Source: Egibacteraceae bacterium (lineage in GTDB: Bacteria > Actinomycetota > Nitriliruptoria > Euzebyales > Egibacteraceae). From it: DNA of 64,000 nucleotides. The stretch lies in contig JBOGED010000195.1 of assembly GCA_050743625.1 (NCBI GenBank), positions 1,643-65,642 on the forward strand. The letters are read 5' to 3'. Every line of letters starts with the position of its first letter. The first letter of the stretch is position 1. The notes beneath the pieces are model-generated. The model searched no databases. It was not told the origin of the DNA and saw only the letters and a list, made by a program, of their open reading frames with translations. Both the position numbers and the translations under genes were made by a program. Of this stretch, positions 15,907 to 36,164 are shown piece after piece.

Positions 15907-16012
15907 CTAAGACATGCGAGCCGCGACGGACACTGCATGATCCAAGGTCCTTTCGGTGGATCTGTAGGCGTGGCATTGCTGCCTGATCCTTGCGATGCTG
16001 GGTGAGGTGAGG

Positions 16013-16064
16013 GGTACGGAGGACGAGCCCCCAGGACTTGAATCCTGGGACTCGCCTCCGTACC
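16013..16064 (-). terminator. Long imperfect hairpin between the class IV precursor gene and the ABC genes (candidate attenuating terminator)
   Basis: GGTACGGAGG-ac-GAG-ccc-CCAGGA-cttgaa-TCCTGG-ga-CTC-g-CCTCCGTACC, located 48 nt downstream of the precursor stop codon. Confidence 0.45.
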
Positions 16065-16111
16065 TCTCCGGGCCGACCTGACTCTTGTAAGGCCGGATGG
16101 TCGTCTGTGCC

Positions 16112-16303
16112 CTAGAACTGAATGTTCGCTTGGGTCCCAACGCAGGTGACTGCGCAGGAAAGGCCGCAGACGAAGACGTTGACTCCGACGTTGACCCGGA
16201 CCCGGCGCCTATGGCGAAGGCCGATCTCGGTGCTGCTTGCCGTGACAGGATCGGTTTCCGGCAGGAGCTGCAACGCGGTGACGTCGACTTCCAGTGTTTG
16301 CAT
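16112..16303 (-). CDS. Class IV lanthipeptide precursor (LanA)
   Basis: 63 aa: MQTLEVDVTALQLLPETDPVTASSTEIGLRHRRRVRVNVGVNVFVCGLSCAVTCVGTQANIQF. A strong RBS (GGAAGGAGGTGAACA) lies 3 nt before the ATG. The leader LLPETDPV resembles the venezuelin-type leader as I recall it. The C-terminus is Cys/Ser/Thr-rich. GC3 is high. The gene sits between the peptidase and the transporters of a LanL operon. Confidence 0.8.
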   Translation of the reverse strand: MQTLEVDVTALQLLPETDPVTASSTEIGLRHRRRVRVNVGVNVFVCGLSCAVTCVGTQANIQF

Positions 16304-20860: not shown

Positions 20861-21647
20861 CTAATCCCCCAGATGACTGAAGCCACCGTAGGCGCGTGAA
20901 GTCGGCGACGCCTACTTAGGAATCCGTGAATGCACGCGAGCCGCGTACGTTCCCCGCCTGTAAACTAACCCTTAGTTAGTCAGGAATCCTTGTATTGCCC
21001 GGTGGGGGCCAATACGCCTTCCATGTTCCCGCCTTCCTTCTCATCCCGCTCATGGAAGTTGTAGCCCTCCTGTTCACTCTCCGCAAGGCTATTTTCTCTT
21101 CGGTGCCGCCCGTGAGGACAGCACTACCTAGAGCTGATATGCTTCGCAGCCTTTCATCCCCTTTCTCGGTATCGCCCGAATTATCTTAGTCAAACAGGCA
21201 AGATCGTTGGTCCGGTAATTCCTATACAAGATGATTACTGACCGTAATCTAACTGATACGGCGACGCCGTTATCGGGACACGAAATTGTGCGCCGGATGA
21301 TGGCTGACTCGGAGACTTCGCCACGGATCGACTGGATAGGGATGAGGTGAGCGTTGGCCAGATATGCGACAGATACCCTGTGAGGTTTGCGATAATGGCG
21401 CTTGGAACAACGTCAACTTCTGAGCTGGAGTGCATCTGTCGGGTAAAAGCATGACACAATCTGTATACCGGCTGCCCCAGGCCAAGCTGGTGGTCCGTCG
21501 CCGAGGTCCTTTCAATGGCGGGGCGCGATCTGCGCCCCGCTCGCTTGTGCGGGAGGAGCGACGCGTATCCGCTGAGAACGCTGAGCGACGAGCAACGCCG
21601 CGAGGCCCGGGCGTGGGATGCGCATTCCGACGTGAAAGGAACTTAAG

Positions 21648-21842
21648 TGGTCGCGCGGATAGGCCGTGACCGGCTGTGCGGCATGGAACCGCAGCTTTCC
21701 TCCGCATGCGAAGGAAAGCTGCGGTCTTGTTCCCGCGGCGCGCGTTGAACCCGCAGAAATCCTCCGTATACGGAGGAAAGCTGCAGTGTGACCATGCATC
21801 TGCTCTCTGTCTGCGCGCTGAGGGCCGGGCGCCTATCCGCGC
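21648..21842. repeat. MITE-like element: 14-bp terminal inverted repeats enclosing two family C hairpins
   Basis: TCGCGCGGATAGGC (21648-21661) is matched by its exact reverse complement at 21829-21842. Inside lie CCGCAGCTTTCCTCCGcatgCGAAGGAAAGCTGCGG (21689-21724) and CCGCAGAAATCCTCCGTATACGGAGGAAAGCTGCAGTGTGACC (21751-21793). Confidence 0.6.
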
Positions 21843-21849
21843 GAGCGGT

Positions 21850-22048
21850 TAGGCGACGGGCCACTGGTCATCCGCGACAGGAAGGGGCCGCTGGCGCACA
21901 CGACCTCGGGGATGTTCATCGCTAACGCCGCCTGGGCCGCCCTTGCCATGCTGGCGCACAACCCGGGCGGTGGAGCCTGCGCTGTGCGTCGGCAAGGGGA
22001 CCGTGCGGACTGCTCTACCTGCGTCTCGTTATTAACTGGTGATCCATA
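21850..22048 (+). pseudogene. Remnant of a transposase C-terminus (IS1380-like)
   Basis: The + frame reads ..RDRKGPLAHTTSGMFIANAAWAALAMLAHNPGGG..stop. The segment F-x-AN-AAW-x-LA-x-LAHN is a motif I associate with IS1380-family transposase C-termini. There is no intact upstream ORF. Confidence 0.35.
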
Positions 22049-22746
22049 GCGGGTTCCTTTTGGCATTCGATTACGCCTGCATCCCGTCGATCGCAGTTCG
22101 ATGCTCAAGGACCTCTTCTACGGATCGCCAGTTAGGAGCGCCCTCGGACCCCCGAGACGACACAGGAGCGGTAGCGCCCCAGCTGTCTTGTCCGACACGA
22201 CTCCGTCCACACCATCCCAGAATTCCGCCGCCAAGAGTTAAGTTATCTTAATATAAATTGCCATCGGTAGGCGGGCGCTCACGGAGGGTGTTATTATATC
22301 GTGCTGCCTTCGGTTAGTGGCTGATGTGGTCACTGGAGCTTCTGCGAAACGAATTCTGTCCCTTTCGGGCGAGGGATGGTAAGCCAGACATTCCAGTTGG
22401 TTAAATGTCGCAAGCTGTCTCGACGTGGTTCAAGGTGGCAATTTTCAGGCCTTGGTGAAATTTATATGGGCAAGATCCTCGTGATGAGGGAGCTTGCCTC
22501 TATGCGGCTAAAAAAATCACTATCTGGGGTTGACTTCCAGGGACTCATCATTACCATCGGGTGACCTGGGGATGAACAACGTGGCCCAGAAGGGCGGCTA
22601 GGAAGTAGTCCGATGGCGTAAAGGCGGCGGCGCATTCTCGAGTGTTTCGGATAAGTCCGACTGTATGTGTCGTCGTGTAGTTGAGGAATCACTTCCAGCT
22701 CCTCCCGACGAGGTGAACTCTGATCACCACTTCGGAGGAATGAGCG

Positions 22747-23253
22747 ATGGCAGGCTTCGATTTTGGCATGTTCACTGCTATGTCACGGGGCAACGGCGCA
22801 GACGATCCTGTGCTGGTCGAGATGCGTAACGACGCCTCCCTGACACGGGCGGCGAGGCGGAGCGCTGAGGGGCGGCGACCGGCGGCCTCTCGTGTGGCAT
22901 CACGCCAAAGGAAGGCGCGGTGGAGGCTCCATGTGTCTGCGGCGCACGCGTCTGCGCAGGCGATGTTTGCTCGATCGCTTCCCCTGCCGGGGGAGGCGCA
23001 TGCGGGCTTCAAGCTTGCGAGTACGAGCGAGCACGTTGCCTCAACCGAAGGTAGGCGACGCTTCGCAGCCATGGGTCTCCACGAGGTGACGAAGAAGTCG
23101 TCCGATGGGGCGAGGCGCCCTACTGGACGGCAGCGGGCCTCGCCGCTCCCCGTATTCTCGCGGACCATCCGTACGCGTGACGCGCGGGAAAGGCTCGTTC
23201 GCTGCCGGTACGGCGCGTTGCTACCGCGGGCTCGTCCCGCATCGGCCTCATAG
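22747..23253 (+). pseudogene. Degenerate stand-alone homologue of the LanL/LanKC N-terminal lyase domain (relic or inactive paralogue)
   Basis: 168 aa. The segment RWRLHVSAAHASAQAMF..GFKLASTSE..RCRYGAL aligns with GWKLHVSATRASAGAVL..AFKFAKSRE..VHYRYGAF of the LanL at 18155..20860. The Lys of GWK is replaced by Arg. The ORF is Arg-rich and has lower GC3 than its neighbours. Confidence 0.4.
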
Positions 23254-23482
23254 ACGTGGCTCACCAGACTGATCTCATCTTTCGAAACTTCGGTCATGTC
23301 TATGTGGACAAAAAGCAAATAAATAGAAAGAAGCGCCCACCCTCCGTTTTTCAAAAAAGATCCGTCAACCCCTTGACTGATATCCAGGCGTCATTTTAAA
23401 TAGCAACCCCGGGTGGCGGAACCGCGTCGAGGTTGGCAGCGGGCGCGCGTCGATAGAGGGACCCAAAGAGAACAGGCATATC

Positions 23483-26098
23483 ATGGATATGCAGTATGAA
23501 ATGTATTGCCTTACGGATCCGATCTTCTACGACTCGCTTATCAATGCGCGGGCAGAGAATCTCGAATTCGAGGTTGCCCGACGCCCAGTACCGCAGGGGT
23601 GGCAGCGCTTTGACAATGATGGCTGGTTGATATACCAAACGGCCGATATGCAACTTCCGTTGCAGGGGTGGAAGATCCACGTTTCGGCATGTATGCACAA
23701 CGCCGAGGAGATTCTCGCCACGGTCTGGGATTACTGTATCGCGCGCGGTATCTCGTTCAAGTTTCTGTGCGGGCGTCATATCCTCTATATGGCTAACTCT
23801 AAATACGCGGGCCGGGGTGGCAGTGGGAAGCTTGTGACGATCTATCCGGTGGACGAGGCTGAGCTGGAATTGGTGCTCAAGGAGGTGGGTGAGCTCCTAG
23901 AAGGCCAGCCGGGTCCTTACATCTTGAGCGATCTGCGCTGGGGCTCGGGACCCCTGTATGTCCGGTACGGGGGCTTCGCCGAGCGGTACCGCCTGTCGGA
24001 GCAAGGGGAGTGGGAACTCGCCATGGAAGACCCCACCGGCGAACTGGTTCCCGATAGACGCGAGCCGACATTCAAGGTTCCGCCGTGGGTGACGCTTCCC
24101 GACTTTCTCGTTCCCCACCTGGCGGCGCGCAACAGCACGACGGTAACGGATCTTCCCTACAATATTGAACGGGCGCTGCACTTCTCCAACGGAGGCGGCC
24201 TGTACCTTGCCCAGGACCGGCGGACGGGCGAGCAGGTCGTGCTCAGGGAAGCACGGCCTCACGCCGGGCTCGCTGCCGACGGGACGGACGCCGTCACCAG
24301 GTTGCAGCACGAACGGGCGATCCTAGAACGACTGGCCGGCCTCGACGTAGCGCCAGGTCTCCGCGACTACTTCATGCTGGGCGAGCATCACTTCCTCGTC
24401 CAGGACTTCGTCCAAGGGCAACCCCTCAATAGAGCCTTCATCGAGCGCTACCCCCTGATCCAGCGCGGAATCGACCAGCGCGTGGTCGCCGAGTACACGG
24501 CGTGGGCGCTGGCTGTCCTCCGTGAGGTCGAGCAGACCATCGCTGCGCTACACGAACGCGGCATTGTCTTCGGAGACCTCCACGTGCTCAACATCATGCT
24601 CCTGCCCGACGATCGCGTCAGGCTCATCGATTTCGAGGTCGCGGCACACGTCCGCGAGGGAGGCCGGCCAAGTCTGGCCAACCCGGCCTTCGCCGCGCCG
24701 CCGGACCGCACCGGTTTCGACATCGACCGGTACGCACTGGCCTGCCTGCGCCTCTTCATGTTCTTGCCCCTGACCTATCTGCTACCGCTCGAGCTGGGCA
24801 AGGCAGAGCATCTCGCCGAGGAGATCGCCGAGCGTTTTCCGGTCACTCGCGAGTTCCTGGAAGAGGCGCTGCAAGTGATCATCGGCACGAAAGAACGGCA
24901 GGAGACAGACGCCGGGACAGGATCGGGGAGCGCGCTCCGTCACCTGCCGCTGCCCAGCCCAGGCCGCTCCGGCTGGGAGCGTACACGTGAGTCCATGACT
25001 CAAGCCATCCTGACCAGCGCAACGCCGGACCGTGACGATCGCCTCTTCCCGGGAGACATCGAGCAGTTCAACTCGGGTGGTCTCAACGTCGCCTATGGCG
25101 CAGCAGGAGTGTTGTATGCGCTGTCCGTGACCGGGGCGGGCCGTTACCCGGAGCACGAGGAGTGGCTCACGCGACAGGTTATGCGCTTGGACCAGAAGGC
25201 CCGTCTGGGCTTCTACGATGGGCTTCACGGCGTGGCCTACGTCCTAGCCCATCTCGGGTATCGAGGCGAAGCCCTGAGGGTCCTCGACATGTGCCTGGCC
25301 GAGAAGTGGGAGAGGCTAGGCCTCGACCTCTTCGCAGGTCTCGCTGGTGTCGGCCTGAACGTGGCGCACCTTGCCGCAGTGACTGGTGACGCGTCGCTGC
25401 GAGACACCGCGCTTCGGGCGGCGGACATGATTGCGGACCGGTTGGGCGACGAGGACAGTGTCCCGACCGTCAGCGGCGGCGATCACCCCTACGCCGGGCT
25501 CATGCGCGGATCTTCCGGACCCGGCCTCCTGTTCGTCCGCTTGTACGAACTCACCGGCGACAGCGGCTTCCTGGACCTCGCCGCGACGGCGTTGCGCCAA
25601 GACCTCCGGCGCTGTATGACCCACGAGGATGGGGGCATGGAGGTCAACGAAGGCTGGCGGACTATGCCCTACCTCGCGACCGGCAGCGTGGGCATTGGGT
25701 TGGTACTGGACGACTATCTCGTTCACCGCCAAGATGAGCGGTTCGCGGATGCCAGCGCCGCGATCCGGGGAGCTGCCGAGTACGACTACTACGCCGAGTC
25801 GCAAGTCTTTGACGGCCGTGCAGGCATCATCCTCTACCTCAGTCGTTCGCACCGCGTCGGTGCGGCCGCGAAGGACCCGCTCGTGGCCGACCACGTACGC
25901 CGTCTCGCGTGGCATGCCATGCCCTACCAGGGCTATCTGGCCTTCCCAGGCGAGCAGCTGCTTCGGCTATCCATGGATCTCGCCACGGGCACGGCCGGGG
26001 TCCTCCTCGCCCTAGGCGCTGCACTGCACGACGAGCCCGTGGGCCTGCCATTCCTCAATCCCCGGCAGCCTTCGAGTTTCTCGCGGTCATCTTCATGA
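23483..26098 (+). CDS. ramC: Class III lanthipeptide synthetase (LanKC; RamC/AmfT-like)
   Basis: 871 aa. Lyase motif QGWKIHVSA. Kinase core (VVLREARPHAG, DLHVLNIML, DFEVAA). The C-terminal LanC-like repeats lack the Cys/His zinc ligands: LMRGSSG replaces WCHGSSG and LATGSVG replaces CHGLAG. Confidence 0.9.
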   Translation: MDMQYEMYCLTDPIFYDSLINARAENLEFEVARRPVPQGWQRFDNDGWLIYQTADMQLPLQGWKIHVSACMHNAEEILATVWDYCIARGISFKFLCGRHILYMANSKYAGRGGSGKLVTIYPVDEAELELVLKEVGELLEGQPGPYILSDLRWGSGPLYVRYGGFAERYRLSEQGEWELAMEDPTGELVPDRREPTFKVPPWVTLPDFLVPHLAARNSTTVTDLPYNIERALHFSNGGGLYLAQDRRTGEQVVLREARPHAGLAADGTDAVTRLQHERAILERLAGLDVAPGLRDYFMLGEHHFLVQDFVQGQPLNRAFIERYPLIQRGIDQRVVAEYTAWALAVLREVEQTIAALHERGIVFGDLHVLNIMLLPDDRVRLIDFEVAAHVREGGRPSLANPAFAAPPDRTGFDIDRYALACLRLFMFLPLTYLLPLELGKAEHLAEEIAERFPVTREFLEEALQVIIGTKERQETDAGTGSGSALRHLPLPSPGRSGWERTRESMTQAILTSATPDRDDRLFPGDIEQFNSGGLNVAYGAAGVLYALSVTGAGRYPEHEEWLTRQVMRLDQKARLGFYDGLHGVAYVLAHLGYRGEALRVLDMCLAEKWERLGLDLFAGLAGVGLNVAHLAAVTGDASLRDTALRAADMIADRLGDEDSVPTVSGGDHPYAGLMRGSSGPGLLFVRLYELTGDSGFLDLAATALRQDLRRCMTHEDGGMEVNEGWRTMPYLATGSVGIGLVLDDYLVHRQDERFADASAAIRGAAEYDYYAESQVFDGRAGIILYLSRSHRVGAAAKDPLVADHVRRLAWHAMPYQGYLAFPGEQLLRLSMDLATGTAGVLLALGAALHDEPVGLPFLNPRQPSSFSRSSS

Positions 26099-26137
26099 TC
26101 CGAAACTCACCCAGCAACCAAGGAAGGAGGTGAACAG

Positions 26138-26266
26138 ATGGCCCTTCTCGATCTTCAAGGAATGGAACTGCCCGTCGAGGCGAAGGATGCACTCGCCGGC
26201 AAGAGCAGCAGAAGCAAGCACAGCTGCGGCCCGAGCGTGCTCAGCATCACGATTATTTGCCTGTGA
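26138..26266 (+). CDS. ramS: Class III lanthipeptide precursor, SapB/AmfS-like (not in the ORF track, 42 aa)
   Basis: MALLDLQGMELPVEAKDALAGKSSRSKHSCGPSVLSITIICL. The class III leader motif LLDLQ is present. The core carries SxxSxxxC (S23-S26-C30) and SxxSxxxxC (S33-S36-C41). The RBS GGAAGGAGGTGAACA lies 1 nt before the ATG. The gene lies directly after the LanKC and before two ABC genes, matching ramCSAB order. Confidence 0.85.
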   Translation: MALLDLQGMELPVEAKDALAGKSSRSKHSCGPSVLSITIICL

Positions 26267-26367
26267 CGCTGACCACAATCACGATGCGGAGATGATGGAC
26301 GTCTCTGCGACAACCAGCATGGCGTAGCAGCGTCTCCTAGAGAGACAACGCAGGCTATAGCGGTTGC

Positions 26368-26407
26368 GGTCTCGGGCGGGCGGGATGCAGCCCGTTCGTC
26401 CGAGACC
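26368..26407 (+). terminator. Imperfect hairpin downstream of the class III precursor
   Basis: GGTCTCGG-g-CGGGC-gggatgca-GCCCG-ttcgt-CCGAGACC. There is no clear U-tract. It may act as an attenuator between ramS and the transporter genes. Confidence 0.3.
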
Positions 26408-26410
26408 ATT

Positions 26411-28261
26411 ATGCCCGCGCCGCCCTTCGAATCCAAGAGAACATTCGGTCACGGAAATGGGGATCTCGTGAGGAGCAAGCCGGGCGCGCGACTCTGGGCG
26501 TGGTGCTTGCCTCGCGATGCAGCTGACCGCCTTGTCATCCGGGTCGCCCGGCATGGTGGCGGCTGGGTCGGTGTGCTTGCGGTCACGGCGATCGCGAGCG
26601 CCGTGATGGAGACGCTCCTCCCAGCCGCTCTCGGACGCGCGGTGGACGTTGTGCTTAGCGGCGGCGACGCGGCCGCATGGATCACGCGATGCGGCATGTT
26701 GATCGTACTCCTCGTGGTCTGTGATGTGCTGAGCAGTCTCGCCGACGGTGCGAGCAGTGCGGAGTCCACGGCGTGGCTACGCCACACGCTGTTGCGTCAC
26801 GTCCTGGCGCTCGGGACGCGGACCGCCCGGCGGTTCACTCCCGGAGACCTGGTGAGCCGCATGGTCGGCAATACGGCTGAGGCCGGGCGTGTGGGGGCAG
26901 CCGCGGTCGTGGGCATGGCCTCCGCCATCCCTTCGGTCGGCAGCCTCATCGCACTCGTGCTTATCGATCCGTGGCTTTGCGTCGCGTTCCTGGCTGGGTT
27001 CCCCCTGCTCGCGCTGCTGCTACGAGCCTTCGTCCGGGACTCCTCGAATATCGCCACTCAGTACCTTGGGGTTCAGGGCGCCATCGCGGCACGGCTCGTT
27101 GACGCCTTGGCGGGGGCACGCACGATCGCGGCCGCCGGGACGGTGGACCGTGAGGTAGAACGTGTGCTCGCCCCACTGCCCGAGCTGTACGAGCATGGCC
27201 AGGGGATGTGGCGCGCGCAGACCAGGATCGTCTCACAGGCTGGCCTCCTCGGTCTGCTCGAGGTCGCGGTGCTCGCGGTCGCGGGGTTCGAGCTCGCGCG
27301 GGGGCGGATCACCCTCGGTGACATGCTCGCCGCCAGCCAGTACGTGACGCTGGGCATGGGGCTCGGTGGAATCGTGGCGTTCCTCACTCGACTGTCCCGT
27401 GTCCGGGCTGGAGCCAGGCGCACGGCGGAGGTTCTCGCTGAGGCGCCGATGAGATATGGGACGGGGAACCTGCCCGCCGGACCCGGGCGGCTCGAGTTTC
27501 GCGGAGTGACCGTGAGCGTAGGCGGCGAGCGGGTACTGGATGGTCTTGACCTCGTCGTGCCGGGGGGAGCCGCGGTCGCGGTCGTGGGACGTTCCGGAGC
27601 CGGCAAGTCGCTGCTCGCCGCGCTTGCTGGGCGGCTCATCGACCCTGACGAGGGGCAGGTAGTCCTGGACGATGTGCCGCTCCACCATTTGGACCGTCGC
27701 GAGCTCCGTCGTGAGGTCGGCTACGGCTTCGACCGTCCGGCGCTGATCGGGCACACCGTTGCCGAGGCGATCGGGTTCGGGCAGCACGCGCCCAGTCAGA
27801 GGCGGCTGGAGGACGCCGCCCGCGCCGCTTGCGCTGACGTCTTCATCCGCCGGTTGCCGCAGGGCTACCGGACGCGGCTCGCCGACGCGCCGATGTCCGG
27901 GGGAGAGGTCCAGCGCATCGGGCTCGCACGCGCGTTCGCCCAGGCGGGGCGTGTGCTGGTGCTGGACGACGCCACCTCGAGCCTCGACACCGTGACCGAG
28001 CTGCAGATTAGCCGTACGCTCACCGGCGAGTTGAGCGACCGCACCCGTCTTATCGTTGCCCATCGAGCCTCCACAGCCGCCCGGGCGGACCTCGTCGCTT
28101 GGCTGGACGGGAATCGGGTACGGGCGCTCGGGCCACATCACGAGCTGTGGAGCAACCCGGACTACCGTGCCGTCTTCATCGCGGATGTGGCGGAACTCGA
28201 GACCGTCGACACCGTCGACGCGGTCCACACCCGCAACGGGAGTCGAGGTGGGCCGGCGTGA
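26411..28261 (+). CDS. ramA: ABC exporter, fused permease-ATPase (RamA-like)
   Basis: TM domain followed by Walker A GRSGAGKSL, signature MSGGEVQR and Walker B VLVLDDATSSLD. The start is uncertain; the first 40 or so residues may not be translated. Confidence 0.85.
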   Translation: MPAPPFESKRTFGHGNGDLVRSKPGARLWAWCLPRDAADRLVIRVARHGGGWVGVLAVTAIASAVMETLLPAALGRAVDVVLSGGDAAAWITRCGMLIVLLVVCDVLSSLADGASSAESTAWLRHTLLRHVLALGTRTARRFTPGDLVSRMVGNTAEAGRVGAAAVVGMASAIPSVGSLIALVLIDPWLCVAFLAGFPLLALLLRAFVRDSSNIATQYLGVQGAIAARLVDALAGARTIAAAGTVDREVERVLAPLPELYEHGQGMWRAQTRIVSQAGLLGLLEVAVLAVAGFELARGRITLGDMLAASQYVTLGMGLGGIVAFLTRLSRVRAGARRTAEVLAEAPMRYGTGNLPAGPGRLEFRGVTVSVGGERVLDGLDLVVPGGAAVAVVGRSGAGKSLLAALAGRLIDPDEGQVVLDDVPLHHLDRRELRREVGYGFDRPALIGHTVAEAIGFGQHAPSQRRLEDAARAACADVFIRRLPQGYRTRLADAPMSGGEVQRIGLARAFAQAGRVLVLDDATSSLDTVTELQISRTLTGELSDRTRLIVAHRASTAARADLVAWLDGNRVRALGPHHELWSNPDYRAVFIADVAELETVDTVDAVHTRNGSRGGPA

Positions 28262-30042
28262 GCCGCGCGGAGCGGAGGCACATGCTCTTGCGCGTCCTGT
28301 CTGCTCCGCTGCGACGCCGGCCTTGGGTCATCGTGCAGCTCGCGGGCTGGTCGATCGTCCAGGCGCTGCCCGCGTTCCTGTCAGGCTATGCCGTCGCGCG
28401 CGCAATCGACGACGGCTTCCTCGCCGGCCGTACCGCGACAGGGTTTGCCTGGCTGGGCCTCATGGCAATGTCTGTCGTTGCCGGAGCCTGGGGTACCCGT
28501 CAGGTCTACCAACGGCTGGCGGGCATCGTCGAACCGTTCCGGGATGAGCTGGTCCGCCGTGTCGTGACCGGTGTGCTCCACCACTCCATCGCGCGCGGGA
28601 ACCCTCCCGACACCGCCGGGGTTGGGAGGCTCACCCAACACGTCGAGATCGTGCGCGAGGCGTTCGCCAGCTTGATCATGGTTTCGCTCAACTTCGCCTT
28701 CACCGTGACGAGCGCACTGCTCGGCATGCTCTCCTTGGTCCCCATCGTCTTGGCGTTCGTTCTTCCCCCCTTGGTGCTCGGCCTCGGATTGTTCTTCGGC
28801 GCGCTCGCCGCGATGGCGGCGCGGCAGCGGGTCTTCGTCTTGGCCGACGAGCGCCTCGCCGAGACGGCGAGCACCGTGGTAGGCGGCCTGCGCGACGTGG
28901 TCGCGTGCGGTGCCGAGGAGCAGGTCCGCGCCACGGTTGGTGAGCACGTCGACGCGCAGGCTCACGCCGCACACGCGTTGGCGCGCCTCTCAACGGTCCG
29001 GATCCTGGCCCTGGCCGTTGGCGGCTGGCTGCCGCTGCTGGGCATCCTGGCTGGCGCGCCGTGGCTGCTGCGTAACGGGGCGACGACGGGTGCGGTCCTG
29101 GGCGCGTTTACGTACGTGGCCTATGGACTGCAGCCGGCCCTGGAAACCCTGATCCAGGGCCTCGGCGGCAGCGGCCTGTGGCTTGCGGTTACCCTGGGCC
29201 GGATCGTTGAGGTGAGCAGCGGTCCGGGCGAGATCCCCCACGCTACCGAACGGCTACAGCCGCGGCCCCATCGGCAAGATCTGCGGCTTTGCGGAATCAC
29301 CTTCGGCTACGGAACACACGCCGAACCGGTGATCCGCGATCTCGACCTGGTCATCTCCGATGGTGACCACGTCGCCATCGTGGGCCCGAGTGGCATCGGA
29401 AAGTCGACGCTCGCGAACCTCATGACGGGGCTGCTCGAACCTCAAACCGGAGAGGTGCGGATCGGCGGCGTTCCCGTCCGCGAGCTTGGCGTGGACAGCC
29501 TGGCCCTTCATCGCGTGCTGATTCCTCAAGAGGCGTACGTCTTCACCGGCATGCTCAGGGAGAACCTCACCTACCTGCGGCACGACGTCTCTCAAGCCGA
29601 GATCGACGAGGCGGTCGAGGCAATGGGGCTAAGACCGCTCGTTGAGCGGGTCGGCGGATACAACGCCGAGGTGGATGCCTCAGCGCTCTCGGCTGGCGAA
29701 CGCCAGCTCATCGCCTTGACTCGCGCGTATCTCTCGCCGGCGAGGCTTGTGGTCTTGGACGAGGCCACGTGCCATCTGGACCCGGTCGCGGAAGTGGGGG
29801 CTGAGCGGGCGTTCGCCCGCCGTCCGGGCACGCTCGTCGTGATCGCGCATCGGGTGAGCTCGGCGATTCGTGCGCGCCGGATCCTCGTCATGGACGGCGC
29901 GCACGTGCTGGATGGCACCCACGAGAGCCTGCTGGCGGCCTCGCCGTTGTACCGCGACTTGGTCGGCCACTGGACAGTCACTGACCCGACGGCTCCCCTC
30001 AGCCAAGGGATTACCGCGGGCTTGAGCTGGCAACAGCCATGA
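28258..30042 (+). CDS. ramB: ABC exporter, fused permease-ATPase (RamB-like)
   Basis: The GTG at 28258 overlaps the upstream stop codon (GTGA). Walker A GPSGIGKST, signature LSAGERQ and Walker B LVVLDEATCHLD. The longer track ORF starting at 28099 is an upstream extension. Confidence 0.85.
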   Translation: MSRAERRHMLLRVLSAPLRRRPWVIVQLAGWSIVQALPAFLSGYAVARAIDDGFLAGRTATGFAWLGLMAMSVVAGAWGTRQVYQRLAGIVEPFRDELVRRVVTGVLHHSIARGNPPDTAGVGRLTQHVEIVREAFASLIMVSLNFAFTVTSALLGMLSLVPIVLAFVLPPLVLGLGLFFGALAAMAARQRVFVLADERLAETASTVVGGLRDVVACGAEEQVRATVGEHVDAQAHAAHALARLSTVRILALAVGGWLPLLGILAGAPWLLRNGATTGAVLGAFTYVAYGLQPALETLIQGLGGSGLWLAVTLGRIVEVSSGPGEIPHATERLQPRPHRQDLRLCGITFGYGTHAEPVIRDLDLVISDGDHVAIVGPSGIGKSTLANLMTGLLEPQTGEVRIGGVPVRELGVDSLALHRVLIPQEAYVFTGMLRENLTYLRHDVSQAEIDEAVEAMGLRPLVERVGGYNAEVDASALSAGERQLIALTRAYLSPARLVVLDEATCHLDPVAEVGAERAFARRPGTLVVIAHRVSSAIRARRILVMDGAHVLDGTHESLLAASPLYRDLVGHWTVTDPTAPLSQGITAGLSWQQP

Positions 30043-31466
30043 CCCGCGGGAGGCCGGTTTGCCCGTCCGTCACTTTGGCCCGCCTCGTCAGCGGGTCTCG
30101 GTCGCAAACGATCACCGAATGGATGTCGAACATGCTTGCTCGCCATGGGTACGGTCCGGGAGCGACCACCCCGAATCTGACCGTGCCCGCGCTGCCGTAT
30201 CCGATCGAGCGCGCGACGCTGGTCAACGGGCTGCGCGTCGTGATCGCTCCGGACTCGCGTGCGCCCGCGATCGCCGTCACGGTGTACTACGACGTCGGCA
30301 TCCGCTCCGAGCCTGAGGGGCGGACCGGCTTCGCGCACCTGTTCGAGCACTTGATGTTCCAAGGGTCGGCGTCCCTCGAGAAGCTCGCGCACTCCCGATA
30401 CGTGCACTCGTCTGGCGGGGACTTCGACGGGACGACCCACCTTGACTACACAAACTTCTACGAGATCCTGCCGAGCAACGCGCTGGAGCGCGCATTGTTC
30501 CTCGAGGCCGACCGCATGCGAGCGCCGCGACTGACCGAGCAGAACCTCGCGAACCAGATCGCGGTGGTGAAGGAAGAGGTCCGCCTCAAGGTGATGAACC
30601 AAGCGTACGGCGGGTTCCCGTGGCTGCAGCTGCCGCCGGTGCTGTTCGACACGTTCCCGAACGCGCACAACGGCTACGGCGACTTCGCCGACCTGGAGGG
30701 GGCGAGGATCGAGGACGCGCAGGGTTTCTTCGACCGCTACTACGCGCCTGGCAACGCGGTGCTGGCGGTGGTCGGCGATCTCGACGTCGCCGAGACGCTC
30801 CGGCTGATCGAGCGGCACTTTGGTGATATCCCCGCGCGCCCGGTGCCTGAGCGTCCCAGCTTCGCCGAGCCGGACCTCGACGGCCCGCGCCACGACCGGA
30901 CAGTCGACCGTCACGCCCCGATGCCCGCGGTAGCGCTGGGCTGGCGGGTGCCCGACCCGATCACCGACTTCGGTGCGTACCTTCCATACCTGGTGCTCTC
31001 CGTGGTGCTGACCGACGGGGATGCGTCGCGCCTCCGCCGCCGTCTCGTGAAGGACGACCGGCTCGTCACCGCCCTGTCCGCCTTCCTGTCGGTCATGGGC
31101 GACCCGTTCGATGTGCGTGAGCCGAGCGCGATGGTGGTGAGCGCGATCCATACCAGGCCGGTCGAGGATGTCCTGGTGGCACTCGACGAGGAACTGGACC
31201 GCCTGGCGACGGACGGTCTCGTGGACGGCGAGCTAGAACGCGCGCGGGTGCGGCTCGTAGTCGGCCAGATCGGCCGGACCGAGCCGCTTCTCGACCGGGC
31301 TCGGTTGATAGCGGTCTTGGAGCAGCAGCGCGGCCGTGCCGAGCTAGCCGGCGAGCTGCCGGGGCTGCTCGCCGAGGTCACCGGCGAGCAAGTCGTGAAG
31401 GCCGCCGCCATGCTGCGCCCCGACCGGCGTGCAGTGCTCGAGCTGGTGCCGGGAGGTCGGAAGTGA
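30039..31466 (+). CDS. M16-family zinc peptidase, catalytic subunit (pitrilysin/insulinase-like)
   Basis: Inverted zinc motif HxxEH in FAHLFEHLMFQGS. The ATG overlaps the ramB-like stop codon (ATGA), implying translational coupling. Confidence 0.85.
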   Translation: MTRGRPVCPSVTLARLVSGSRSQTITEWMSNMLARHGYGPGATTPNLTVPALPYPIERATLVNGLRVVIAPDSRAPAIAVTVYYDVGIRSEPEGRTGFAHLFEHLMFQGSASLEKLAHSRYVHSSGGDFDGTTHLDYTNFYEILPSNALERALFLEADRMRAPRLTEQNLANQIAVVKEEVRLKVMNQAYGGFPWLQLPPVLFDTFPNAHNGYGDFADLEGARIEDAQGFFDRYYAPGNAVLAVVGDLDVAETLRLIERHFGDIPARPVPERPSFAEPDLDGPRHDRTVDRHAPMPAVALGWRVPDPITDFGAYLPYLVLSVVLTDGDASRLRRRLVKDDRLVTALSAFLSVMGDPFDVREPSAMVVSAIHTRPVEDVLVALDEELDRLATDGLVDGELERARVRLVVGQIGRTEPLLDRARLIAVLEQQRGRAELAGELPGLLAEVTGEQVVKAAAMLRPDRRAVLELVPGGRK

Positions 31467-32848
31467 CCGCGATCGTCGAGCCCCGGCCTGTCCCCCCGCT
31501 CACGCCGCCGCGTTCGGTCCCGCCGCTCTTGATCGCCAAGCACAAGCTCGACACCGACCTGAAGGTTCTCGCAGTCGAGAGCGGTGGGGCGCCCCTGGTG
31601 CAGCTACGGCTGTGGGTGCCGTTCGCGGGGCCCCCAGCAGGAGCTGGGGAGGAGGGCCTGGACGCTGTCGACGCGTCCGGCTCCAGCGAGGCCGACACCG
31701 CGCGCGCGACGTTGCTCGCCAGGACCTTGCTGTCCGCCACACAGCGGCGGAGTAACGCCGAGCTGGCCACGGCGTTCCAGGCGCTGGGGGCCACATTGCG
31801 TGTTGGGGCCGACCCGGACGGCCTGCTATTCACGGGCAAGGCGCTCGCGAGCAGCCTACGGGACCTGCTAGAGCTGCTCGCTGAGGTGCTGACCTCCGCT
31901 ACCTACCCCGAGGATGAGGTCGCGGGAGAGCGTGCCCGCGTTGTGGAGGAGCTCACGATGGCGCGGTCGGCGCCGTCGGTGCTGGCCAGCGAGGCACTGC
32001 TACGACGCATGTTCCGCGGTCATCCCTACGCATGCAAGGTGCCCAAGCCCGAGCAACTGGCGGAGACGCGTCCAGACGACCTGCGGCGCCAACACGCGGA
32101 AGGCGTGCTGCCGGACGGGAGCACGCTCGTGCTCGTGGGTGATGTGCCGGCTCACCAGGCGCTGGCTCAGGCCGCTGAGGCGCTGTCCGGCTGGAACGCC
32201 GTGGGATCGACTCCTGTGGCGCCAGCCGTGCTGGCGCCGGAGCCCGGCCCCGTCCTGCTCGTGAACCGGCCGGGCTCGGTTCAGTCGTCCATCCGCATGG
32301 GCGGCCTGGCGTTGCCGCGGTCGGATCCCGACTACGCCGCCTTGAAGCTGGCGAAGACCATCTTCGGCGGCTACTTCGCATCCCGTCTGGTGGAGAACAT
32401 CCGCGAGGACAAAGGCTACGCCTACTCACCACACTGCGTGATCCGGCACGCGGTAGCGGGCTCTACGCTGCAGCTCGGAGCAGACGTGGCTAGCCAGGTC
32501 ACCGCCCCCTCGCTGCTGGAGATCGCCTACGAGCTGGGTCGCATGGCAACCCTGCCAGTGGGCGCCAACGAGCTGGAGAACGCTTGCCAGTACGCGATCG
32601 GCACGCTCGCGCTGGAAACCACGACGCAGGGCGACCTCGCCGACAAGATCGTTGCGCTGGAGGCCAGCGGGCTCGGCCCCGACTGGCTGGATGAGCACTC
32701 GCGCCGCTTGGCAACGGTAACGGTCGAGCAGGTGATGGAGCAGGCGGCCCGCTTCCTCGCGCCTATGCGGCTCGTGACGGTCGTCCTAGGCGACGCCAAC
32801 GTGGTCGAGCCGTCGATGCGCACACTCACCGAGGTCACACGGGGTTAA
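31463..32848 (+). CDS. M16-family peptidase, non-catalytic partner subunit
   Basis: Same fold and length as the upstream gene but without HxxEH; the equivalent region reads ARATLLARTLLSATQ. The GTG overlaps the upstream stop codon (GTGA). Confidence 0.8.
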   Translation: MTAIVEPRPVPPLTPPRSVPPLLIAKHKLDTDLKVLAVESGGAPLVQLRLWVPFAGPPAGAGEEGLDAVDASGSSEADTARATLLARTLLSATQRRSNAELATAFQALGATLRVGADPDGLLFTGKALASSLRDLLELLAEVLTSATYPEDEVAGERARVVEELTMARSAPSVLASEALLRRMFRGHPYACKVPKPEQLAETRPDDLRRQHAEGVLPDGSTLVLVGDVPAHQALAQAAEALSGWNAVGSTPVAPAVLAPEPGPVLLVNRPGSVQSSIRMGGLALPRSDPDYAALKLAKTIFGGYFASRLVENIREDKGYAYSPHCVIRHAVAGSTLQLGADVASQVTAPSLLEIAYELGRMATLPVGANELENACQYAIGTLALETTTQGDLADKIVALEASGLGPDWLDEHSRRLATVTVEQVMEQAARFLAPMRLVTVVLGDANVVEPSMRTLTEVTRG

Positions 32849-32956
32849 CCTCAATGCCGCCAATTTGGGCGGCTGACGCGGTGCGCTTCGCCATCGGCGG
32901 GTCCAAGTTTCTACCAATCGGCGTCGTTTGCCGCCCGCTACCGGCGCGCTGTCTGC

Positions 32957-33049
32957 TTTTGCGCGCCGGCGCGCAAAAACGGCGGCCAACCGGTGCTATC
33001 GGTGTCGCGAACGCCGTTGGCCTGCGACTTTTGCGCGTATGCGCGCAAA
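32957..33049. promoter_or_regulatory. Pair of related palindromes TTTGCGCG(C)..(G)CGCGCAAA upstream of the LtrA-like gene (candidate operator sites)
   Basis: A perfect 22-bp palindrome TTTTGCGCGCCGGCGCGCAAAA lies at 32957-32978. A second copy, TTTGCGCG-tatg-CGCGCAAA, lies at 33030-33049. Confidence 0.4.
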
Positions 33050-33196
33050 GACGGAGGCTTGACCCCGTTTACGCAGCTATCTCGCCAGACCCTATGTGAG
33101 TGGCATTGGCGTTAACCTCATCCCTGCGATGCGGCACGCATGCGTGCCGAATCCTGGCCACAAGCGCATGGGTGGCGTGCCACCATCGGGGTTGTG

Positions 33197-34518: not shown

Positions 34519-34556
34519 GCACCGGCCGTGGCGTGGTTGGTCGCCACGGCCGGTGC
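34519..34556 (+). terminator. Perfect 15-bp stem hairpin downstream of the LtrA-like gene
   Basis: GCACCGGCCGTGGCG-tggttggt-CGCCACGGCCGGTGC. Confidence 0.6.
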
Positions 34557-34985
34557 TGCCGCTGCCAGCCGACCGGAGGGGGGCCGGTCGAGTGGCCGAA
34601 CCAGGCGTCTCGCCGGTTCTTCGGGAGGTTTGCGTGTCCTTTAGTGGTCTTGATCATGGACGGCGGGCCAAGGCTTGGGGCACCCCCGACGGCGTTTCGC
34701 AAGGGACGTCAACCAAACCTAGGGCTTGCGGTTGCGTGTTTTCCGTTCGAGCGAGGACCCACCCCGTCCGCAGCCCGGCAATTCGTGGTTTCGTCCCTTC
34801 CGCCCGCGCGTTACGGTCGTAGCCCGCTGTGTAGTTGTAGCTCTCCCGTTCGCCGGCTGCAACACTGTGCGGCGACACGTTCTTGTTGTGTTCGCCGAGG
34901 TCTTACGGGTGCGAGTCATCGGCGTCTTGCGTACGATAGAAGCTCGCGGCGGGGCATAGCTGGCGAGCGCGCGGGGCTTGAGCGG

Positions 34986-36164
34986 ATGGGCGAGAACGAT
35001 GCGGAAACAGCGGGTGTGGGCGGGCGCGCCCGGATGGAAGGCGGTGAGATTCCCCGCGTGAGCTACACCGATCTCTTGGCGGCGATCGCGGCGTTCGGTC
35101 TTCCCAACGCGTCGACCGCGCTACCGGGCGTCCCGCTTGCTCCCGCGCAATGGCGGCGGCTTATGGAGGGCACCGCGGCGGCGCGCCTGAGTGGTCATCT
35201 CGTCGAGGCCATTGACTCCAAAGCATTCGCCGTGACCGCTGAGCAGGCCCGGCAGGCGGCAGAGCTTCATCGCAAGCTGACGTGGCGGGTACTGGGGCTC
35301 GAGCGGCGGTTGCTGGAGGTGGCCGGGCTGCTCAGTGCGCTCGGTATCGAGATGCGCGTGTTGAAAGGGCCGGCGCTCGCCCGCACGTGCTACCCAAAGG
35401 TGTCCGCGCGCACCTTCGCCGACGTCGACGTGCTCGTGCCGGCGGATCGGTTCGACGAGGCGGGGGCGGCGCTGGCGGATGCGGGCTGCGCACGCACCCT
35501 CCCGCAGCTTCGGGAAGGGTTTGACCGACGGTTCGGGAAGAACGCGACGTTCGTCGGTCTCGATGGCTTACAGGTCGACGTGCACCGCACGTTCGTCGTC
35601 GGTCCCTACGGGCTCCTGATCACCCTCGAGGACCTGTTCGCCACGCACGAGTCATTCGCCCTTGGCGGGCGCATGCTGAAGGCGTTGGGCACCGAGGAGC
35701 AGTTCCTCAACGCCTGTTACCACGCGGCGTTGGGTGACGTGCCTCCGCAGCTGAGTGCCCTCCGTGACGTCGCCCAGATGCTCCTCGGCGCCAAGCTCGA
35801 CGTCGACCGCGCCCGTCGGCTCGCCGAAGCATGGCGGGGAACGGCCGTCCTGGCTCGGGCGGTCGCGTTGACGTGGCGAACGCTTCGCCTGAGCGAGCAG
35901 CCCCCGCTTGCCGTATGGGCGCGAGGGTTCACCCCCACCAGGTGGGATCGGCGGCTGCTCACCTGCTATGTGTCCGCGAACCGGAGCAACAGCCTGAAGT
36001 ACCTCGCGTCCGCGCGTGTCATCCCCGGCACGGGTGCCAAGCTCGCGTACCTGCGAGGACTCCTGCTTCCCGACCGCGCGTTCCTCGCGCGGCGGAGAGT
36101 GGCGTACGGTGCCTGGTGGCACCACGGCGCGATGGGGCTTCTGGGGCGGGAGCCGAAGCGATGA
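34986..36164 (+). CDS. Nucleotidyltransferase-family protein of the type found in RiPP/lasso clusters (PF14907-like), copy 1
   Basis: FADVDVLVPADRFDEAGAALADAGC is an NTase-fold motif. It is a paralogue of 44353..45540 and similar in length once the implausible 150-aa N-terminal extension of the track ORF is removed. Its stop codon overlaps the next start (ATGA). Confidence 0.7.
   Translation: MGENDAETAGVGGRARMEGGEIPRVSYTDLLAAIAAFGLPNASTALPGVPLAPAQWRRLMEGTAAARLSGHLVEAIDSKAFAVTAEQARQAAELHRKLTWRVLGLERRLLEVAGLLSALGIEMRVLKGPALARTCYPKVSARTFADVDVLVPADRFDEAGAALADAGCARTLPQLREGFDRRFGKNATFVGLDGLQVDVHRTFVVGPYGLLITLEDLFATHESFALGGRMLKALGTEEQFLNACYHAALGDVPPQLSALRDVAQMLLGAKLDVDRARRLAEAWRGTAVLARAVALTWRTLRLSEQPPLAVWARGFTPTRWDRRLLTCYVSANRSNSLKYLASARVIPGTGAKLAYLRGLLLPDRAFLARRRVAYGAWWHHGAMGLLGREPKR

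What the first reader, a model, noticed from the sequence alone, without database searches (positions are those of the whole stretch)
23483..32848. ramCSAB/amf-like SapB-type operon extended by a translationally coupled M16 peptidase pair
The LanKC (no zinc ligands), the 42-aa precursor and the two ABC genes reproduce the ramC-ramS-ramA-ramB order. The precursor MALLDLQGMELPVE...SSRSKHSCGPSVLSITIICL resembles RamS/AmfS as I recall them (M.L.DLQ.M..P.E leader; SxxSxxxC cores; ..SLSITTC.. C-terminus).

The second ring motif has one extra residue (SxxSxxxxC).

Unlike the Streptomyces cluster, no RamR-type response regulator is adjacent. Instead an HxxEH M16 peptidase and its non-catalytic partner follow, with ATGA and GTGA start-stop overlaps.

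To my knowledge the protease that removes the SapB leader has not been assigned to the ram cluster. A coupled M16 heterodimer is therefore a concrete candidate. M16 pairs also occur in other RiPP clusters, such as AlbE/AlbF of subtilosin.
Basis: partly seen in the sequence, partly recalled or inferred. Interest (0 to 1): 0.6.

Follow-up and report, generated by a model that had tools for sequence, protein, structure and literature searches.

The report
SapB-type lanthipeptide operon with own M16 protease
An uncultured actinobacterium carries a SapB/AmfS-type modified-peptide operon that has picked up a duplicated two-subunit zinc protease, most likely to cut off the peptide's leader; this is a new example of a solution already shown in Bacillus relatives.

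Summary
Window 23483-32848 (+) encodes a class III synthetase LanKC without zinc ligands, a 42-aa precursor that passes the SapB/AmfS family model, two ABC exporter genes, and an M16B pair (HLFEH active subunit, then an inactive partner).

The pair is not a housekeeping gene that merely sits there. 160 loci with related M16 pairs carry no lanthipeptide genes, and 14 other actinobacterial class III/IV loci carry no M16. The genome has a second, standalone pair (70%/57% identity). In trees the operon-linked copies form one clade nested inside the standalone pairs. In the LanKC tree the M16-linked clusters bracket a well-supported clade. This points to one duplication and recruitment, then co-inheritance with at least two losses. 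Both subunits are under purifying selection (dN/dS about 0.3).

The most likely role is a cytoplasmic leader peptidase (confidence 0.55); no activity was tested.

The idea is not new. M16B heterodimers were shown to remove class III leaders in Paenibacillus and Bacillus in 2022-23. What is new is an independent recruitment of a different M16B subfamily in Actinomycetota, into a SapB-type cluster. The ATGA overlap with the transporter gene depends on an uncertain start codon.

In passing: a 51-nt genome-wide repeat sits in frame inside the inactive subunit.

The parts
23483..26098 (+). Class III lanthionine synthetase LanKC (RamC/AmfT type: lyase, kinase and a zinc-less cyclase domain)
   Evidence: NF038151 scores 1124 bits against a cut-off of 575; Pfam finds RamC_N and Pkinase. 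Zinc ligands are replaced by L/A, F and D. It is 46-54% identical to the LanKC of seven ramCSAB-type loci.
26122..26136 (+). 15-nt Shine-Dalgarno box GGAAGGAGGTGAACA just before the precursor ATG; the identical box precedes the class IV precursor at 16307-16321 (-)
   Evidence: Two exact matches in the window against 0 expected by chance.
26138..26266 (+). 42-aa SapB/AmfS-family precursor: leader MALLDLQGMELP..., core with S-x2-S-x3-C and S-x2-S-x4-C motifs
   Evidence: ORF listing. NF033212 scores 37.1 bits against a cut-off of 25. Aligns with other precursors.
26368..26407 (+). 17-bp-stem hairpin ending 3 nt before the ABC1 ATG, with a smaller hairpin at 26286-26308. Probably an attenuator or processing structure between precursor and exporter genes (inferred).
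   Evidence: RNA fold of 26260-26420: -75.2 kcal/mol, z = -4.6, and 0 of 200 shuffles fold as well.
26411..28261 (+). ABC exporter subunit 1 (RamA/AmfB-like; membrane domain plus ATPase, no C39 peptidase domain). The exact start is uncertain.
   Evidence: Pfam ABC_membrane and ABC_tran. 47-54% identical to the first ABC gene of ramCSAB-type loci.
28258..30042 (+). ABC exporter subunit 2 (RamB/AmfA-like). It starts at a GTG in a GTGA overlap with subunit 1.
   Evidence: Pfam ABC_tran. Junction sequence. Homologues are 589-594 aa. 47-51% identical to the second ABC gene of ramCSAB-type loci.
30039..31466 (+). M16B active subunit (HLFEH, with Glu in VVKEEVR). Possible starts are ATG 30039 (ATGA overlap with ABC2), ATG 30123 or ATG 30132 (444 aa, as on record).
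   Evidence: Pfam Peptidase_M16 and M16_C. Best solved structures are 4nnz and 3amj_C 'active subunit', E about 1e-43. Motifs are conserved in an alignment. dN/dS is 0.29 against L178.
31463..32848 (+). M16B inactive subunit (no HxxEH; conserved R/Y region ...SRLVENIREDKGYAYSP...). GTGA overlap with the active subunit.
   Evidence: Pfam. Best solved structures are 3gwb and 3amj_B 'inactive subunit'. AlphaFold2 model: pLDDT 88, pTM 0.86. dN/dS is 0.31.
31627..31677 (+). 51-nt (17-codon) in-frame insertion in the inactive subunit. It is a copy of a palindromic repeat present about 70 times in the genome.
   Evidence: Absent from all 8 aligned homologues; genome-wide copies found. In the model it falls in a low-confidence loop, residues 55-71.
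32849..33139 (.). 291-nt intergenic region after the operon, with a short hairpin just after the stop codon and several perfect GC-rich palindromes. Likely the operon end (inferred).
   Evidence: Read from the sequence. No comparable gap or hairpin lies between ABC2 and M16a.

Best explanation
This is a six-gene operon for a SapB/AmfS-type class III lanthipeptide.

Proposed pathway (the roles of LanKC and the exporters follow from family knowledge; the protease step is inferred):
1. LanKC binds the conserved LLDLQ leader of the 42-aa precursor. It phosphorylates and eliminates the serines and closes two rings without zinc.
2. The M16B heterodimer has an HLFEH active subunit and an inactive, substrate-binding partner. 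Neither subunit has a signal peptide, so the enzyme is cytoplasmic. It removes the leader by an endoproteolytic cut, possibly followed by N-terminal trimming as in PttP1/PttP2.
3. The two ABC half-transporters have no protease domain of their own. They export the mature amphiphilic peptide, which has a cationic ring A and a hydrophobic ring B.

The protease pair arose by duplication of this lineage's standalone M16B pair. It was recruited once to the 3' end of the ramCSAB-like operon and has since been co-inherited with it.
For: Shown here:
- Gene identities rest on curated models.
- The genome holds a second, standalone pair on C88 next to a HAD hydrolase (70%/57% identity). That layout is conserved in related metagenome-assembled genomes.
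- None of 80 species-genome loci and 80 metagenome loci with related M16 pairs has LanKC or ramAB genes nearby.
- None of 14 other class III/IV loci sampled from the phylum has an M16 gene within about 10 kb.
- The ramB-to-M16 junction recurs in three other sequences, with different downstream genes each time: the P0004 contig, the P0129 contig (4-nt overlaps throughout) and own contig C26.
- Operon-linked M16a and M16b fall in one clade (SH-aLRT 95-96), nested within the HAD-linked clade.
- In the LanKC tree the M16-positive clusters bracket a clade with support 97, so linkage was ancestral and co-divergent.
- dN/dS is about 0.3, and the catalytic motifs are intact.
- No terminator-like site or sizeable gap lies before the pair, whereas a 291-nt palindrome-rich gap follows it.
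- The neighbouring class IV operon also carries its own peptidase, of family S9.

From the literature:
- M16B heterodimers remove class III leaders in Paenibacillus and Bacillus, and an extra in-cluster pair is found in 17 of 48 clusters beside the genomic pair. That is the same pattern as here (PMC8960859; PMC10604976).
Against: - No activity was tested.
- The two closest complete relatives, L176 and L177 (LanKC 75% identical), have ramCSAB without the pair. The second cluster in this genome has the pair deleted. The pair is therefore dispensable, or replaceable in trans.
- The genome has an M1 peptidase on C370 that could act like AplP.
- A generic actinobacterial M16B pair from Catenulispora did not cleave a class III precursor in vitro (PMC8960859).
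- The pair fails the YmfH/YmfF family cut-offs, so it is not an orthologue of the proven enzymes.
- dN/dS is about twice that of the standalone pair, which could mean relaxation rather than new function.
- The inactive subunit carries a repeat insertion.
Confidence: 0.55

Rival explanations
1. The pair is a hitch-hiking paralogue with no role in the lanthipeptide pathway. It kept the unknown general peptide-degrading function of standalone M16B pairs. The leader is removed by the AplP-like M1 peptidase or by other cellular proteases.
For: - The genome has an M1 family peptidase.
- AplP-like enzymes encoded outside the cluster are the accepted route for actinobacterial class III/IV peptides (PMC10885120).
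- L176 and L177 lack the pair, and it is deleted in C26.
- M16a is 70% identical to the standalone copy, with no obvious active-site change.
Against: - The linkage has persisted across LanKC divergence down to 65% identity, with congruent trees and changing downstream neighbours.
- Purifying selection acts on both subunits.
- The spacing is operon-like.
- There is direct precedent for in-cluster duplicates of M16B pairs acting on class III precursors (PMC8960859).
Confidence: 0.2
2. The pair is an accessory of the pathway but not the leader-cleaving enzyme. It degrades released leader peptide or unmodified or misprocessed precursor (clearance or quality control), or it trims N-terminal overhangs after a first cut by another protease.
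For: - M16 enzymes typically degrade short unstructured peptides inside a closed chamber (family knowledge).
- Class III peptides mature by stepwise N-terminal trimming, and PttP1/P2 have aminopeptidase activity as well (PMC10885120).
- The pair is dispensable in close relatives.
Against: Nothing in the sequence separates this from leader cleavage, and the proven M16B examples perform the endoproteolytic cut themselves (PMC8960859).
Confidence: 0.17
3. The pair is decaying and no longer functional in this genome.
For: - There is a 17-codon repeat insertion in the inactive subunit.
- The sister cluster on C322/C26 is clearly decayed: an in-frame TGA in LanKC, a frameshift in ABC1, and an M16a-M16b deletion fusion.
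- dN/dS is higher than in the standalone pair.
Against: - Both reading frames are intact, and all catalytic and R/Y residues are kept.
- dN/dS of 0.3 is far from neutral.
- The insertion is in frame and lies in a predicted surface loop of an otherwise confident fold.
Confidence: 0.06

Closest known systems
ramCSAB (S. coelicolor) / amfTSBA (S. griseus) SapB-AmfS morphogen clusters
   Same: - Gene order: LanKC, then a roughly 40-aa precursor, then two ABC genes.
- LanKC is 46-54% and the ABC proteins 47-54% identical to those of seven such loci.
- The precursor passes the SapB/AmfS family model and shares the MALLDLQ.ME.P leader.
- The cyclase domain lacks zinc ligands.
   Different: - No RamR/AmfR-type regulator on the contig.
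- An M16B pair is appended; it is absent from all seven reference loci.
- Ring A of the core is polar and cationic (SSRSKHSC), and ring B has one extra residue.
- The host belongs to a small non-Streptomyces class of Actinomycetota, probably Nitriliruptoria/Egibacteraceae. A role in aerial hyphae is therefore unproven.
PttP1/PttP2, Bcn-gP1/gP2 and ThurP3/P4: M16B heterodimeric leader peptidases of class III lanthipeptides in Paenibacillus and Bacillus (PMC8960859; PMC10604976)
   Same: - A two-subunit M16B enzyme: an HxxEH subunit plus an R/Y subunit.
- It is encoded inside a class III cluster as an extra copy beside a genomic standalone pair.
- The transporter has no protease domain.
   Different: - A different M16B subfamily: 17.8 and 46.1 bits against the YmfH/YmfF models, whose cut-offs are 250 and 285.
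- Opposite gene order: the active subunit comes first here.
- A different phylum and a different precursor family: SapB/AmfS with two ring motifs, against Pre_24 with one.
- Activity is not tested here.
- The recruitment therefore looks independent.
Sph2681/Sph2682 of Sphingomonas sp. A1 (PDB 3AMJ), the structural prototype of heteromeric M16B
   Same: The best-scoring or near-best solved structures for both subunits are the matching chains: active subunit 3amj_C at E = 6e-43, inactive subunit 3amj_B at E = 4e-25.
   Different: It has no link to modified-peptide biosynthesis, and its physiological substrate is unknown.
AplP-like M1 Zn peptidases (NAI-112 and other actinobacterial class III/IV peptides) and FlaP (S9)
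   Same: They do the same job, leader removal for class III/IV lanthipeptides. The neighbouring class IV operon has a FlaP-like S9 peptidase, and the genome has one M1 peptidase.
   Different: They are unrelated protease families (M1 and S9 against M16).

Membership tests
SapB/AmfS-type (ramCSAB/amf) class III lanthipeptide cluster | Class III synthetase LanKC with lyase, kinase and cyclase domains | tested here: met
   NF038151 scores 1124 bits against a cut-off of 575; Pfam finds RamC_N, Pkinase and LANC_like.
SapB/AmfS-type (ramCSAB/amf) class III lanthipeptide cluster | Cyclase domain lacks the Cys/Cys/His zinc ligands | tested here: met
   In an alignment with the neighbouring LanL, WCHG aligns with YLATG and SCHG with VFDG.
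SapB/AmfS-type (ramCSAB/amf) class III lanthipeptide cluster | Precursor belongs to the SapB/AmfS family | tested here: met
   NF033212 scores 37.1 bits against a cut-off of 25; it aligns with precursors of seven reference loci.
SapB/AmfS-type (ramCSAB/amf) class III lanthipeptide cluster | Two S-x2-S-x3-C ring motifs in the core | tested here: inconclusive
   The first motif is canonical. The second is S-x2-S-x4-C, which lies within the general class III range S-x2-S-x2-5-C (PMC8960859) but is not the SapB spacing.
SapB/AmfS-type (ramCSAB/amf) class III lanthipeptide cluster | Two ABC exporter genes directly downstream, homologous to ramA/ramB | tested here: met
   47-54% identity, in the same order, in seven loci.
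SapB/AmfS-type (ramCSAB/amf) class III lanthipeptide cluster | Adjacent RamR/AmfR-type response regulator (NarL/LuxR family) | tested here: not met
   None of the genome's 48 GerE-domain hits lies on contig C195. A relative, the P0004 contig, has such a regulator and a kinase after its M16 pair.
SapB/AmfS-type (ramCSAB/amf) class III lanthipeptide cluster | Product acts as a surfactant or morphogen for aerial growth | not testable with these tools
   The organism is uncultured.
Heteromeric M16B metallopeptidase | Active subunit with HxxEH and a downstream Glu zinc ligand | tested here: met
   HLFEH and VVKEEVR are conserved across the clade; the best solved structures include 3amj_C.
Heteromeric M16B metallopeptidase | Inactive partner without HxxEH, with a conserved R/Y region in the C-terminal half | tested here: met
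   There is no HxxEH. R308, R314, Y319 and Y321 are invariant in 31 sequences. The best solved structures are 3gwb and 3amj_B.
Heteromeric M16B metallopeptidase | The two subunits form a physical heterodimer | not testable with these tools
   Only adjacency and the 4-nt overlap were seen.
PttP1/PttP2-type (YmfF/YmfH) class III leader peptidase | Membership of the YmfH/YmfF protein families | tested here: not met
   NF047421 scores 17.8 bits (cut-off 250) and NF047422 scores 46.1 bits (cut-off 285).
PttP1/PttP2-type (YmfF/YmfH) class III leader peptidase | Encoded within a class III cluster as an extra copy beside a genomic pair | tested here: met
   The window copy plus the C88 copy, with the trees.
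PttP1/PttP2-type (YmfF/YmfH) class III leader peptidase | Cleaves the cognate (modified) precursor | not testable with these tools
   Needs biochemistry.

The most novel reading that the evidence does not exclude
M16B heterodimers were recruited into class III lanthipeptide clusters independently in two phyla. The pair here would be the first dedicated leader peptidase of the SapB/AmfS family. By extension, the very widespread standalone actinobacterial M16B pairs, whose function is unknown, could serve in trans as leader peptidases for ramCSAB-type clusters that lack a protease gene, such as L176, L177 and perhaps Streptomyces.
Probability: 0.25. Interest if true: 0.6.

Novelty: new variant of a known kind. 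Interest (0 to 1): 0.4.

Why it matters
- No protease gene lies in the seven reference ramCSAB-type loci examined here. Missing proteases are a known obstacle to producing class III lanthipeptides in other hosts (PMC8960859).
- A cluster that carries its own candidate protease gives a directly testable enzyme-substrate pair for this family.
- It offers a possible tool for removing LLDLQ-type leaders.
- It is a clean evolutionary example: a gene duplicated, was recruited once, was co-inherited with the cluster and was lost repeatedly. This parallels the Firmicute M16B case with a different subfamily.
- It also places a SapB-type cluster in a deep-branching, uncultured actinobacterial class, where the peptide's role need not be aerial growth.

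Tried and rejected
It added no operon-linked examples.
- DNA of the two key JGI contigs (those of P0004 and P0129) could not be fetched because the sample files were too large. Their precursors, and the M16a of the P0129 contig, could not be read; only the M16b (P0285) entered a tree.
- L175 and L178 are cut just upstream of their M16 genes, so their linkage is unknown.
- Rfam found nothing in the window.
- The consensus scan found no promoter or terminator of note inside the operon.
- I first took the standalone pair to be a universal housekeeping gene and rejected that. Only 16 of 143 genomes of the class have a close relative of it.
- I considered that contigs C322 and C26 might come from a co-binned organism. 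This cannot be excluded for contigs of 2-3 kb.
- My test of whether copies of the 51-nt repeat lie in frame in genes genome-wide was inconclusive. Long stop-free frames are common on all six frames of this GC-rich genome.

Full report
**1. What is there**

On the + strand, 23483-32848 holds six genes with short or negative spacers.

- **LanKC (23483-26098).** It scores 1124 bits against NCBIfam NF038151 'class III lanthionine synthetase LanKC' (cut-off 575). Pfam finds RamC_N, Pkinase and a weak LANC_like domain. I aligned its cyclase domain with the class IV LanL encoded divergently upstream. The zinc ligands of LanL (WCHG and SCHG) correspond to YLATG and VFDG. This is the Phe-Asp replacement described for the metal-independent ThurKC (PMC10604976).
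- **Precursor (26138-26266).** It begins 39 nt after LanKC, behind a strong GGAGG box, and reads MALLDLQGMELPVEAKDALAGKSSRSKHSCGPSVLSITIICL. It scores 37.1 bits against NF033212 'SapB/AmfS family lanthipeptide' (cut-off 25). It shares the MALLDLQ.ME.P leader with precursors taken from seven ramCSAB-type loci of other Actinomycetota.
- **Intergenic hairpins.** A 144-nt spacer follows. It folds into hairpins, including one with a 17-bp stem at 26368-26407 (z = -4.6).
- **ABC exporters.** The two genes are 26411-28261 and 28258-30042. They overlap by GTGA and have no C39 peptidase domain.
- **M16 pair.** The first gene ends at 31466 and carries HLFEH plus the Glu of VVKEEVR. The second (31463-32848) lacks HxxEH but keeps the R/Y region. 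Their best solved relatives are the active and inactive chains of the heteromeric M16B enzyme 3AMJ.
- **Operon end.** After the pair comes a 291-nt palindrome-rich gap, then an unrelated LtrA gene.
- **Regulator.** No GerE/LuxR regulator lies anywhere on the contig.

One caveat concerns the start of the first M16 gene. The ATG at 30039, which gives the ATGA overlap with ABC2, adds 31 residues that no homologue conserves. The protein on record begins at 30132. No Shine-Dalgarno sequence precedes either start, so coupling to ABC2 is possible but not shown.

**2. Is the M16 pair only a neighbour?**

The evidence argues against chance adjacency.

- **The family is normally standalone.** None of 80 loci from species genomes, spanning Micromonosporaceae to Acidobacteriota, and none of 80 metagenome loci has a LanKC or ramAB-like gene within 10 kb.
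- **Other lanthipeptide loci have no M16.** None of seven SapB/AmfS-type loci, and none of seven further class III/IV loci sampled from 400 genomes of the phylum, has an M16 gene nearby.
- **The window pair is an extra copy.** The genome has a second pair on contig C88 (70% and 57% identity). It lies head-to-head with a HAD hydrolase gene. Related metagenome-assembled genomes and contigs share this layout.
- **Only this genome has two copies.** Within its class (143 species genomes), 16 genomes have a close relative of the pair, and only this genome has two.
- **The ramB-to-M16 junction recurs.**
  - One contig reads ABC-ABC-M16-M16, followed by a convergent response regulator and kinase.
  - One reads ramC-S-S-A-B-M16-M16 with 4-nt overlaps, followed by a BTAD regulator.
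  - Own contig C26 has ABC2 followed by the start of M16a behind a GGAGG box.
  - The downstream genes differ every time, so the pair travels with the ram genes.

**3. Evolutionary history**

- In the M16a tree the window copy and the other known operon-linked copy are sisters (SH-aLRT 95). They are nested inside the clade of HAD-linked copies.
- In the M16b tree the window copy, its closest relatives and the copy from the divergent ramCSSAB-M16 contig form one clade (96). It is sister to HAD-linked copies (99) and has longer branches.
- In the LanKC tree a seven-member clade (97) has the M16-positive contig at its base. The window and the C322/C26 cluster sit at the tip. The two M16-negative relatives, L176 and L177, lie in between.
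- The simplest reading is one duplication of the standalone pair, recruitment to the 3' end of the operon, and co-divergence with it. The pair was then lost in the L176/L177 branch and deleted in C26.
- In C26, residue 92 of M16a is joined out of frame to about residue 402 of M16b. That second cluster also has an in-frame TGA in LanKC and a frameshift in ABC1.
- Between the window and its nearest relative with DNA (L178), dN/dS is 0.31 for M16b and 0.29 for the available part of M16a. The standalone pair gives 0.14-0.15, and LanKC 0.17. The operon-linked pair is therefore under purifying selection, but evolves about twice as fast as its parent copy.

**4. Mechanism**

The roles of LanKC and the exporters follow from family knowledge. 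The exporters cannot cut the leader because they have no C39 domain. Neither M16 subunit has an N-terminal hydrophobic signal sequence, as read from the sequence.

I therefore infer that the heterodimer removes the leader in the cytoplasm, after modification and before export. I put this at about 0.55. The rivals are:

- **A hitch-hiking paralogue (0.2).** The leader would be removed by the genome's single M1 peptidase.
- **An accessory role (0.17).** The pair would clear released leader or trim N-terminal overhangs.
- **Decay (0.06).**

Against the main reading: the pair is dispensable in close relatives, and a generic actinobacterial pair failed to cut a class III precursor in vitro (PMC8960859).

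**5. Comparison with what is known**

The operon meets every sequence-level criterion of a SapB/AmfS cluster that I tested, with two exceptions. The adjacent regulator is absent, and the second ring motif has an unusual spacing.

The protease idea is not new. M16B heterodimers are proven class III leader peptidases in Firmicutes, and 17 of 48 clusters there carry an extra in-cluster pair (PMC8960859; PMC10604976; review PMC10885120). The pair here is not their orthologue. It falls far below the YmfH/YmfF family cut-offs, and its gene order is reversed. The recruitment therefore looks independent.

I found no paper in the held library that links SapB/AmfS-type clusters to M16 enzymes. The one paper that holds all four search terms does not make that link. 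Hence my class: new variant of a known kind, of moderate interest.

**6. Host**

The genome is a 5.5-Mb metagenome-assembled genome in 650 contigs, 96.7% complete. It belongs to a small class of Actinomycetota. SapB-family precursors were found in no other genome of that class.

**7. Limits**

- DNA of two key JGI contigs was not available.
- The trees were built with the quick method (SH-aLRT support only).
- Contigs C322 and C26 are short and could be mis-binned.

Noticed in passing
window 31627-31677 and 17828-17885; own genome, about 70 copies on 63 contigs (for example C556:7043-7093; C88:3484-3534; three tandem copies at C2:23130-23282): A 51-nt repeat with two short palindromes (GGGGCCCCCAGCAGGAGCTGGGGAGGAGGGCCTGGACGCTGTCGACGCGTC) is scattered through the genome in both orientations. 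Its first stem shows compensatory changes (CCCCAGC/GCTGGGG against CCGCAGC/GCTGCGG). One copy sits in frame as a 17-codon insertion in the M16 inactive subunit and is absent from all homologues. Another lies inside the S9 peptidase gene of the class IV operon. This resembles Rickettsia palindromic elements or mycobacterial MIRUs.
   Followed up: partly
own genome contigs C322 (1-2401) and C26 (1-3092): A second, decayed SapB-type cluster. Its LanKC is 68% identical and has an in-frame TGA. A 45-aa precursor (MTLLDLQGMELADQ...) scores 40.9 bits against NF033212. ABC1 is frameshifted and ABC2 is 76% identical. M16a residues 1-92 are then fused out of frame to the last 60 or so residues of M16b. 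The contigs could be mis-binned or mis-assembled.
   Followed up: partly
window 12326-20860 (-): A divergent class IV lanthipeptide operon: LanL (NF038150, 1077 bits, zinc ligands present), an S9 prolyl-oligopeptidase-family gene at 16209-18197, and two ABC genes that are 50% and 48% identical to those of the class III operon. Both lanthipeptide operons of this window therefore carry their own peptidase. An earlier finding already covers this operon.
   Followed up: partly
window 26122-26136 (+) and 16307-16321 (-): An identical 15-nt ribosome-binding box, GGAAGGAGGTGAACA, precedes both lanthipeptide precursor genes. There are 2 matches against 0 expected by chance.
   Followed up: yes
window 20861-23482: A 2.6-kb spacer between the two divergent synthetase genes. 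Its GC content is lower (0.58-0.63). No convincing ORF, no Rfam match and no Pfam hit was found for its longest ORFs.
   Followed up: partly
window 32849-33139: Several perfect GC-rich palindromes, such as TTTTGCGCGCCGGCGCGCAAAA and CTTTTGCGCGTATGCGCGCAAAG, fill the gap after the operon. They probably belong to the intergenic repeat families noted earlier for this window.
   Followed up: no
own class, 143 genomes: The 'standalone' M16B pair is patchy in the host's class (16 of 143 genomes, 4 of them in its family). Yet it is 63-66% identical to pairs of Micromonosporaceae and Cryptosporangium, which suggests acquisition from class Actinomycetes. The two genomes of this genus are also the largest of the family (5.5 and 6.1 Mb).
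   Followed up: no
window 34533-36164 (+) and 44353-45540 (-): Two paralogous NTP_transf_5 (PF14907) genes, 44% identical, flank a region of ABC transporter, glycosyltransferase and polysaccharide-synthesis genes. An earlier finding describes a lasso-type cluster here.
   Followed up: no
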